Sequence record: EF517061.1
Origin: a phage
Length of the DNA stretch: 486 bases
Strand: one strand, 5' to 3'
A model generated the notes under the pieces. That model worked only from the letters and a program-made list of their open reading frames with translations. It was not told the DNA's origin and did no database searches. Positions within the stretch are counted from its first letter, which is position 1, and each line of letters opens with the position of its first letter. The position numbers and the translations under genes were made by a program. This document shows positions 1 through 486 of the stretch, in pieces.

Positions 1-134
1 CTCGTAAAGAGGCCACACAGTCACGCGCTCTGGCGATTCGCTCCAACGAACTGGCTGACAGTGCATCCACTAAAGTTACCGAGGCTGCCCGTGTGGCAAA
101 CCAAGCTCAACAGCTTTCCAAATTCTTTGAGTAA
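1..134 (+). CDS. 3' portion of a small phage ORF (T7 gene 4.3-like hypothetical protein); 5' end lies outside the window. Reading frame 3 (codons from nt 3), stop TAA at 132-134. Visible C-terminus: RKEATQSRALAIRSNELADSASTKVTEAARVANQAQQLSKFFE
   Basis: Seen in sequence: frame 3 is open from the window edge to TAA at 132-134, whereas frame 2 has stops at 5-7, 56-58 and 71-73. The stop lies 19 nt upstream of the next ATG, the same spacing I recall for T7 gene 4.3 to gene 4.5. The T7 identity is from memory, not from a search. Confidence 0.75.
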   Translation, partial: RKEATQSRALAIRSNELADSASTKVTEAARVANQAQQLSKFFE

Positions 135-140
135 TCAAAC

Positions 141-146
141 AGGAGA
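141..146 (+). promoter_or_regulatory. Shine-Dalgarno ribosome-binding site (AGGAGA) for the 154-423 ORF
   Basis: Seen in sequence: AGGAGA at 141-146, 7 nt upstream of ATG at 154-156, complementary to the 16S rRNA 3' end, with AT-rich spacer AATCATT. Confidence 0.8.
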
Positions 147-153
147 AATCATT

Positions 154-423
154 ATGTCTAACGTAGCTGAAACTATCCGTCTATCCGATACAGCTGACCA
201 GTGGAACCGTCGAGTCCACATCAACGTTCGCAACGGTAAGGCGACTATGGTTTACCGCTGGAAGGACTCTAAGTCCTCTAAGAATCACACTCAGCGTATG
301 ACGTTGACAGATGAGCAAGCACTGCGTCTGATCAATGCGCTTACCAAAGCTGCCGTGACAGCAATTCATGAAGTTGGTCGCGTCAATGAAGCTATGGCTA
401 TTCTCGACAAGATTGATAACTAA
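154..423 (+). CDS. 4.5: Small phage protein, 89 aa (T7 gene 4.5-like; recalled as a Lon protease inhibitor / anti-abortive-infection factor). Sequence: MSNVAETIRLSDTADQWNRRVHINVRNGKATMVYRWKDSKSSKNHTQRMTLTDEQALRLINALTKAAVTAIHEVGRVNEAMAILDKIDN
   Basis: Seen in sequence: ATG at 154 with a strong SD 7 nt upstream, uninterrupted frame to TAA at 421-423 (270 nt). Established knowledge from memory: the length, the 19-nt gap from the upstream stop and the 62-nt distance to the +1 G of the downstream T7 promoter match T7 gene 4.5 and phi4.7. The six-frame track extends this frame back to GTG at 61, but that start has no RBS and would overlap the upstream gene. Confidence 0.88.
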   Translation: MSNVAETIRLSDTADQWNRRVHINVRNGKATMVYRWKDSKSSKNHTQRMTLTDEQALRLINALTKAAVTAIHEVGRVNEAMAILDKIDN

Positions 424-426
424 AAG

Positions 427-470
427 TGGTATCCTCAAGGTCGCCAAAGTGGTGGCCTTCATGAATACTA
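427..470 (+). promoter_or_regulatory. Imperfect RNA hairpin in the 3' UTR of the 154-423 ORF; candidate RNase III processing site (T7 R4.7-like)
   Basis: Seen in sequence: apical stem 437-445 (AAGGTCGCC) pairs with 451-459 (GGTGGCCTT) as 9 bp including two G-U wobbles, with loop AAAGT (446-450). A lower stem pairs roughly 427-434 with 463-470 (including one G-U pair and one C/A mismatch), separated from the apical stem by a small internal loop. Stem-internal-loop-stem is the typical architecture of T7 early and class II RNase III sites, and I recall an R4.7 site mapped just upstream of phi4.7. No U-tract follows, so this is not an intrinsic terminator. Confidence 0.5.
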
Positions 471-486
471 TTCGACTCACTATAGG
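468..486 (+). promoter_or_regulatory. Phage T7 RNA polymerase promoter (class II, phi4.7-like), truncated at the window edge; predicted +1 G at nt 485
   Basis: Seen in sequence: CTATTCGACTCACTATAGG at 468-486 against the T7 consensus TAATACGACTCACTATAGG(GAGA). Positions -12 to +2 (CGACTCACTATAGG) are identical to consensus; mismatches are at -17, -16 and -13. The initiating region beyond +2 is outside the window. Confidence 0.85.

What the first reader, a model, noticed from the sequence alone, without database searches (positions are those of the whole stretch)
154..423. Small phage ORF matching T7 gene 4.5, a reported Lon-inhibiting anti-defence protein
The 89-aa product matches, by my recollection, T7 Gp4.5. 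This protein has been reported to bind and inhibit host Lon protease, which prevents degradation of antitoxins and so blocks toxin-antitoxin-mediated abortive infection. It is the one element in the window with a direct role in the phage-host arms race. The sequence shows a lysine/arginine-rich N-terminal half and a C-terminal segment (TDEQALRLINALTKAAVTAIHEVGRVNEAMAILDKIDN) that looks amphipathic-helical, which would fit a small protein-binding inhibitor.
Basis: partly seen in the sequence, partly recalled or inferred. Interest (0 to 1): 0.55.

Follow-up and report, generated by a model that had tools for sequence, protein, structure and literature searches.

The report
Phage T7 gene 4.5, known Lon-binding protein
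The ORF is gene 4.5 of bacteriophage T7 (87 of 89 residues identical), a small protein already reported to bind the host Lon protease and so disarm a toxin-antitoxin defence. The finding is correct but ordinary.

Summary
The window is T7 nucleotides 13431-13916 at 99.0% identity. It holds the 3' end of gene 4.3, all of gene 4.5 (154-423), the R4.7 RNase III hairpin and the phi4.7 promoter. The 89-aa product matches Pfam PF17574 "Inhibitor of toxin/antitoxin system (Gp4.5)" end to end (E = 2.3e-61). It differs from T7 gp4.5 only by V60I and A74V. The gene is under strong purifying selection (pN/pS 0.07).

Reviews and later papers report that T7 lacking gene 4.5 is restricted by about three logs by the sanaTA system, and that Gp4.5 interacts with Lon. 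I could not read the primary paper, and one paper says only that Gp4.5 "might inhibit" Lon.

One nuance goes against its emphasis. The invariant residues lie in the basic N-terminal beta-sheet (residues 7-59), while the C-terminal helices are the most variable part.

New here, but modest:
- A confident AlphaFold model shows four strands plus a helical hairpin. Its best structural matches are PC4/Whirly/Pur-alpha single-strand-binding folds, at weak to moderate scores.
- No solved structure of the family exists.
- The window differs from T7 by five G:C>A:T transitions, four of them at sites invariant in natural relatives.

Novelty: already known.

The parts
3..134 (+). 3' end of T7 gene 4.3: last 43 codons plus the TAA stop at 132-134
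   Evidence: The translation RKEATQSRALAIRSNELADSASTKVTEAARVANQAQQLSKFFE* matches PF17565 DUF5471 at positions 28-70 of 70, E = 2.8e-27. It is annotated as gene 4.3 in V01146.
141..146 (+). Shine-Dalgarno sequence AGGAGA of gene 4.5, 7 nt before the ATG
   Evidence: Read directly from the sequence. The window's C149T change lies in the spacer and touches neither the Shine-Dalgarno sequence nor the start codon.
154..423 (+). Gene 4.5 coding sequence, 89 codons plus TAA. The product is 10.1 kDa with pI 9.9.
   Evidence: PF17574 matches full length at E = 2.3e-61. The product is 87/89 identical to T7 gp4.5. pN/pS is 0.07.
424..472 (+). R4.7 RNase III processing hairpin that ends the gene 4.5 message. 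It has a lower stem (425-433 with 463-472), an internal loop (434-436 and 460-462) and an upper stem (437-446 with 450-459).
   Evidence: The fold is -19.5 kcal/mol with z = -3.4 in the window, and -23.1 kcal/mol with z = -4.2 in T7. The homologous 49 nt in Yersinia phage R are annotated 'R4.7; RNase III single-stranded RNA cleavage site'. Relatives keep the pairs, including one A-U to G-C compensatory change. No Rfam family matches.
468..486 (+). T7 RNA polymerase promoter phi4.7, positions -17 to +2, cut off by the end of the window. It overlaps the 3' arm of the hairpin.
   Evidence: V01146 and NC_001604 annotate 'T7 promoter phi4.7' at nucleotide 13915, which is window 485. The sequence CTATTCGACTCACTATAGG is visible in the window. 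The phage R record annotates the homologous 23 nt as phi4.7.

Best explanation
Window 154-423 is gene 4.5 of bacteriophage T7, in a copy carrying two conservative substitutions (V60I and A74V).

Expression. It is a class II (middle) gene. It is translated from ATG 154 behind a strong Shine-Dalgarno sequence. Its message is trimmed just downstream by RNase III at R4.7.

Product. The protein is small and basic. It has a four-stranded antiparallel beta-sheet (residues 5-50) backed by a helical hairpin (53-88).

Reported mechanism (from the literature, not tested here). Gp4.5 binds the host ATP-dependent protease Lon. This prevents Lon from degrading labile antitoxins such as SanaA after T7 shuts off host gene expression. 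The toxin therefore stays neutralised and abortive infection does not fire.

My inference from conservation. The working surface is probably the exposed, nearly invariant polar-basic face of the sheet (H22, N24, R26, K29, T31, R35, K37, H45, Q47). The variable C-terminal helices are less likely to carry it.
For: Identity:
- 99.0% DNA identity to T7 13431-13916, with gene 4.3, gene 4.5 and phi4.7 annotated there.
- 87/89 amino-acid identity.
- PF17574 full length, E = 2.3e-61.

A real, constrained gene:
- pN/pS 0.07.
- 809 phage records carry a relative.
- Fixed position between helicase and polymerase in 80 of 80 loci.

Function, from the literature:
- sanaTA blocks T7 lacking 4.5 by about 3 logs, and Gp4.5 interacts with or sequesters Lon.
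- Gene 4.5 is more needed on UTI strains carrying the Lon-controlled CcdAB system.

A host-directed role:
- The family is found only in T7-like phages. None was found in 185,579 bacterial and archaeal genomes, and only about 18 clusters exist among 1.84 billion proteins.
- In one divergent T7-like contig, a protein carrying a gp4.5 domain sits in the early host-takeover region, between a gp0.4-like gene and the RNA polymerase gene.

Structure:
- AlphaFold2 mean pLDDT is 85.
- Independent BFVD models of family members superpose at TM 0.73-0.79.

Conserved face: the invariant columns are T7, D12, T13, D15, R19, R35, W36, H45, Q47, R48 and T50. Positions 22, 24, 26, 29, 31, 33 and 37 are 90% or more conserved, alternating along the strands.
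Against: - The Lon mechanism rests on one primary study that I could not read. One citing paper words it as 'might inhibit', and a 2024 review says the benefit to the phage 'remains to be defined'.
- No solved structure of Gp4.5, alone or with Lon, exists.
- The fold's nearest structural neighbours are nucleic-acid binders, not protease inhibitors.
- The gene sits in the DNA-metabolism block of T7.
- Deleting 4.5 also weakens T7 on a RADAR system that is not known to depend on Lon.
- The effect of V60I and A74V on activity is unknown.
Confidence: 0.75

Rival explanations
1. Gp4.5 is primarily a PC4/Whirly/Pur-alpha-like binder of single-stranded nucleic acid that serves T7 DNA metabolism. Its association with Lon, itself a DNA-binding protease, would then be indirect, or would reflect Gp4.5 being a Lon substrate or competitor.
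For: - Foldseek independently ranks 4bg7 first, followed by Whirly proteins (prob 0.97-1.00, TM 0.47-0.59).
- The topology is four strands then a helix, as in that fold.
- The sheet is basic (net +6, pI about 11).
- The gene lies between primase-helicase and DNA polymerase in 80 of 80 loci.
Against: - The scores are only weak to moderate. No Foldseek hit reaches E <= 0.001, and COMM domains score almost as well.
- There is no sequence or profile signal to the PC4, PurA or Whirly families.
- A divergent phage places the domain among early host-takeover genes.
- The published genetic phenotype is anti-defence, and NC_001604 annotates the gene as 'not essential in T7'.
Confidence: 0.12
2. Gp4.5 is a general inhibitor of ATPases (the PhageMaP proposal). 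It would resemble the epsilon subunit of F1-ATPase and counter both Lon and the RADAR RdrA ATPase.
For: - Deleting 4.5 lowers plating on RADAR2 by about 70%, and complementation rescues it. The authors report structural similarity to an F1-ATPase inhibitor.
- Lon is itself an AAA+ ATPase.
- The T4 Lon inhibitor PinA is titled as inhibiting Lon ATP hydrolysis (reference list).
Against: - The RADAR effect is less than 10-fold.
- The RADAR1 effect was not significant.
Confidence: 0.1
3. This particular copy is a damaged, non-functional allele, because the window carries a cluster of mutagen-like changes.
For: - There are five G:C>A:T transitions relative to T7 in 486 nt. Four are at sites invariant in 17 natural relatives, and two of the three coding changes are non-synonymous.
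- The exact protein is not on record.
Against: - V60I and A74V are conservative and fall in the variable helical region. Isoleucine occurs at position 60 in other family members.
- There is no stop codon, no frameshift, and no change to an invariant residue.
Confidence: 0.03

Closest known systems
Bacteriophage T7 Gp4.5 (NP_041980 / CAA24410; Pfam PF17574 TA_inhibitor)
   Same: The gene, its length, its genomic position and its flanking elements are the same. 87 of 89 residues are identical, and the Pfam match is full length.
   Different: There are two conservative substitutions (V60I, A74V), one synonymous change, and two intergenic changes: C149T in the Shine-Dalgarno-to-ATG spacer and G424A at the base of the R4.7 stem. 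All five are G:C>A:T.
Bacteriophage T4 PinA, inhibitor of E. coli Lon
   Same: It has the same reported target and logic. It is a phage protein that binds Lon directly and blocks degradation of its substrates. Reviews group PinA and Gp4.5 together.
   Different: The Pfam scan of Gp4.5 gives no family other than PF17574, but I did not compare it with PinA directly. PinA has in vitro biochemistry behind it (it is not degraded, and it inhibits HspQ, FolA-Sul20 and casein degradation). I could find only interaction and genetics reported for Gp4.5.
PC4 / Whirly / Pur-alpha fold (for example the phage T5 PC4 homologue, PDB 4bg7)
   Same: The predicted topology is the same: four antiparallel strands followed by a helix. 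These are the best structural matches by two methods.

Membership tests
T7 Gp4.5 family (Pfam PF17574, TA_inhibitor) | Full-length match to the family profile above the curated cut-off | tested here: met
   204.3 bits against a cut-off of 27, residues 1-89 on profile positions 1-89 of 89, E = 2.3e-61. It also matches phrog_2254 at E = 5.6e-40.
T7 Gp4.5 family (Pfam PF17574, TA_inhibitor) | Near-identity to the founding T7 protein | tested here: met
   87/89 identical (V60I, A74V).
T7 Gp4.5 family (Pfam PF17574, TA_inhibitor) | Syntenic position: after gene 4.3 and before R4.7, phi4.7 and gene 4.7, within the helicase-to-polymerase block | tested here: met
   The window aligns to T7 13431-13916 with these features annotated. 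The same gene order holds in 80 of 80 IMG/VR loci.
T7 Gp4.5 family (Pfam PF17574, TA_inhibitor) | Invariant core residues of the family are present (T7, D12, T13, D15, R19, R35, W36, H45, Q47, R48, T50) | tested here: met
   All are present in the window protein. The two substitutions fall outside them.
Phage-encoded Lon inhibitors (functional class: T7 Gp4.5, T4 PinA) | Direct binding to Lon and inhibition of Lon-dependent proteolysis | not testable with these tools
   Literature only. The primary paper is not held. No complex structure is in the PDB.
Phage-encoded Lon inhibitors (functional class: T7 Gp4.5, T4 PinA) | Rescue of phage growth on hosts carrying a Lon-dependent toxin-antitoxin defence (sanaTA) | not testable with these tools
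   Reported for wild-type T7 gene 4.5. Untested for the V60I/A74V allele.
PC4 / Whirly / Pur-alpha ssDNA/RNA-binding fold | beta-beta-beta-beta-alpha topology | tested here: met
   AlphaFold2 model at pLDDT 85: strands E5-9, E20-26, E29-37, E44-50, then helices H53-74 and H77-88.
PC4 / Whirly / Pur-alpha ssDNA/RNA-binding fold | Statistically strong structural superposition | tested here: inconclusive
PC4 / Whirly / Pur-alpha ssDNA/RNA-binding fold | Sequence or profile similarity to the PC4, PurA or Whirly families | tested here: not met
   The Pfam scan up to E = 1 gives only PF17574 and a chance-level hit. The family profile against PDB sequences gives none of these proteins.
PC4 / Whirly / Pur-alpha ssDNA/RNA-binding fold | Binding of single-stranded nucleic acid | not testable with these tools
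   Needs a gel-shift or similar assay.
F1-ATPase epsilon / IF1-like ATPase inhibitors (proposed in a 2024 preprint) | Structural similarity to the epsilon subunit | tested here: not met

The most novel reading that the evidence does not exclude
Gp4.5 is a PC4/Whirly-fold protein. Its invariant basic beta-sheet face, the surface this fold normally uses to hold single-stranded nucleic acid, has been turned into a clamp for host AAA+ machines. It would then be a broad inhibitor of ATPase-driven defences (Lon-gated toxin-antitoxin systems, RADAR) rather than a dedicated Lon binder, or its Lon inhibition would depend on nucleic acid.
Probability: 0.1. Interest if true: 0.5.

Novelty: already known. 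Interest (0 to 1): 0.12.

Why it matters
As an identification it adds nothing. T7 gene 4.5 has been sequenced and named since 1983, and its anti-toxin-antitoxin role was published in 2013. It has its own Pfam family.

What remains open is mechanism. No structure of Gp4.5 or of its complex with Lon exists. The evidence I could reach for actual inhibition, as opposed to binding, is second-hand. The conserved surface and the PC4/Whirly-like fold seen here give concrete residues to mutate. They also give a concrete alternative to test, namely nucleic-acid binding. These are useful pointers for someone already working on this protein, not a discovery.

Tried and rejected
- **Primary paper.** Sberro et al. 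2013 was tried by PMC id and by DOI and is not held. Functional claims therefore rest on citing papers.
- **AlphaFold-database fold search.** It was unavailable.
- **Exact-sequence look-ups.** The window's 89-aa protein is not on record. A 66-mer spanning three of the variants is absent from IMG/VR. No INPHARED record exceeds 99.0% identity. The source lineage stays unidentified.
- **Bacterial and archaeal genomes.** No relative was found.
- **Rfam.** Only chance-level hits. R4.7 is not an Rfam family.
- **Host-type promoter and terminator scan.** Nothing was found, as expected for a T7 class II region.
- **Minus-strand 99-aa ORF (181-480).** Rejected as a gene. It is broken by stop codons in 3 of 17 close relatives. 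By established knowledge, T7 is transcribed on one strand only.
- **120-aa GTG-started ORF (61-423).** Rejected as the true start. It overlaps gene 4.3 in another frame. All homologues begin at ATG 154, behind the Shine-Dalgarno sequence.
- **F1 epsilon-subunit resemblance claimed in a preprint.** Not reproduced.
- **Long proteins in the profile search.** P0101 and P0103-P0105 match only the alanine-rich helix region in repeated stretches, so I treat them as spurious.

Full report
**What is in the window.** The 486 bases align without gaps to bacteriophage T7 nucleotides 13431-13916 at 99.0% identity. In the T7 records this stretch carries the end of gene 4.3, all of gene 4.5 and the phi4.7 promoter. 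In window coordinates:
- Gene 4.3 ends with TAA at 132-134. Its last 43 codons match PF17565.
- A Shine-Dalgarno AGGAGA lies at 141-146.
- Gene 4.5 runs from ATG 154 to TAA 421-423, which is 89 codons.
- A hairpin occupies 425-472.
- The T7 RNA polymerase promoter phi4.7 occupies 468-486, with +1 at 485. It is cut by the window end.

**Check of the observation.** The ORF exists at exactly the stated coordinates. Its product is 87/89 identical to T7 gp4.5 (V60I, A74V). It matches the Pfam family built on that protein, PF17574 "Inhibitor of toxin/antitoxin system (Gp4.5)", over its full length at E = 2.3e-61.

It is a real, constrained gene:
- tblastn finds relatives in 809 phage records, mostly from Klebsiella, Escherichia, Yersinia and Salmonella phages.
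- Among 15 distinct natural close relatives, pN/pS is 0.07.
- In 80 IMG/VR loci the gene always lies between the gene 4 helicase and the gene 5 polymerase.

Two competing ORFs can be set aside. The competing minus-strand ORF (181-480) is interrupted by stops in 3 of 17 relatives. The longer GTG-started frame (61-423) is only the same frame staying open upstream.

The N-terminal 50 residues hold 10 K/R (net +6, pI about 11). The C-terminal 39 residues are acidic. Residues 53-74 form an amphipathic helix.

**What the literature says.** I could not obtain the primary paper (Sberro et al. 2013, Mol Cell 50:136). Citing papers report the following:
- The Shewanella sp. [quoted passage not shown]
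- Gp4.5 interacts with Lon.
- The proposed logic is that blocking Lon preserves the labile antitoxin.

The wording varies, from "inhibits" to "interacts with, and might inhibit". A 2024 review notes that how the suppression benefits the phage "remains to be defined".

A 2024 preprint (PhageMaP) adds three things. Gene 4.5 is more needed on uropathogenic strains with CcdAB. Deleting it lowers plating on a RADAR system by about 70%. The authors also propose a resemblance to the F1-ATPase epsilon subunit. T4 PinA is the established functional analogue, with in vitro evidence for direct Lon inhibition.

**Anatomy of the protein.** An AlphaFold2 model built on 52 family sequences is confident (mean pLDDT 85, pTM 0.65). 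It has strands at 5-9, 20-26, 29-37 and 44-50, followed by helices at 53-74 and 77-88. Independently predicted BFVD models of family members superpose on it at TM 0.73-0.79.

Conservation is strongly asymmetric:
- Every invariant column lies between residues 7 and 59.
- The segment 60-89 varies in sequence and length.
- That segment is partly missing in the shortest members, which are 70-76 aa.

Within the strands the conserved residues alternate. One set is hydrophobic (V21, V25, Y34, W36) and presumably packs against the helices. The other set is polar-basic (H22, N24, R26, K29, T31, R35, K37, H45, Q47) and presumably forms an exposed face. This is an inference from sequence and predicted secondary structure. 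I had no coordinates to measure exposure.

**Fold neighbours.** No solved structure is related by sequence, whether searched with the single protein or with the family profile.

These proteins share the four-strand-plus-helix fold that binds single-stranded nucleic acids. That statement rests on established structural knowledge, not on a test here. The scores are moderate and there is no profile-level similarity. I therefore record a fold resemblance, not membership. No ATP synthase epsilon or IF1 chain appeared in either list, so I could not reproduce the preprint's comparison.

**Distribution and context.** A profile search of 1.84 billion representative proteins finds only 22 clusters. About 18 are genuine and almost all are 70-105 aa. 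None of 185,579 bacterial and archaeal species genomes encodes a relative detectable by the scan.

One exception is informative. P0102 is 186 aa, with the gp4.5 domain at residues 119-180. It lies on a 39.9-kb T7-like contig in the early region, between a gp0.4-like gene and the RNA polymerase gene. That placement among host-takeover genes fits a host-directed role better than a replication role.

**Mechanism and confidence.**
- Shown here: the gene's identity, coding constraint, expression signals, predicted fold, conserved surface, and restriction of the family to T7-like phages.
- Taken from the literature: the Lon interaction and the sanaTA phenotype.
- Inferred: that Lon inhibition is the physiological mechanism, and that the basic sheet face is the contact surface.

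I put 0.75 on the combined statement. Identity is close to certain. The Lon mechanism is roughly 0.65-0.75.

The rivals are:
- a nucleic-acid-binding role, with Lon as a secondary partner (0.12);
- a broader ATPase-inhibitor role (0.10);
- a dead allele (0.03).

**Side observations.** The window is T7 plus five changes: C149T, G331A, C374T, C402T and G424A. All five are G:C>A:T transitions. Four hit positions that are invariant in 17 natural relatives, while the T7-specific background is otherwise intact. In those relatives only 27% of private changes are of this type, which gives about 0.0015 for five out of five.

The pattern suggests a chemically mutagenised or laboratory-evolved T7 line, or artificial alteration of the sequence. 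I cannot tell which. G424A removes the outermost G-C pair of the R4.7 lower stem and costs 3.6 kcal/mol.

**Verdict.** The feature is already known. Interest is low.

Noticed in passing
window 149, 331, 374, 402, 424: The window equals T7 except for five substitutions, all of them G:C>A:T transitions. Four are at sites invariant in 17 natural close relatives, and two of the three coding changes are non-synonymous. In relatives only 27% of private changes are of this type, so P is about 0.0015 for five of five. This looks like a mutagenised or laboratory-evolved T7, or an altered sequence. No exact match was found anywhere.
   Followed up: partly
window 424-472: The hairpin right after the gene 4.5 stop is the T7 RNase III site R4.7, annotated as such in phage R. 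Relatives preserve the pairing, including one A-U to G-C compensatory change. The window's G424A abolishes the outermost G424-C473 pair (-23.1 to -19.5 kcal/mol). By my recollection the cleavage is near T7 nt 13892, which is window 462. That falls in the 3' side of the internal loop (460-462).
   Followed up: partly
window 468-486: T7 RNA polymerase promoter phi4.7 (CTATTCGACTCACTATAGG, +1 at 485) overlaps the 3' arm of the R4.7 hairpin and is cut by the window end. Relative L016 (86% identical to the window) has a diverged sequence here, ending CTCTGCAAGTT where the window has CTCACTATAGG.
   Followed up: no
L085:6001-6561: A 186-aa protein carries a gp4.5 domain at its C-terminus and an unannotated 118-aa N-terminal part. 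It is encoded in the early region of a T7-like contig, between a gp0.4-like gene and the RNA polymerase gene, rather than between helicase and polymerase.
   Followed up: partly
window 3-134: The 3' end of gene 4.3 (PF17565, DUF5471). A 2024 preprint reports gp4.3 as a weak counter of a RADAR system together with gp4.5. A gp4.3 homologue was detectable in 62 of 80 related loci.
   Followed up: no
gene 4.5 product, whole length (model): The predicted fold's best structural neighbours are the PC4, Whirly and Pur-alpha single-strand-binding proteins, including a phage T5 PC4 homologue. The F1 epsilon subunit proposed in a preprint does not appear.
   Followed up: yes
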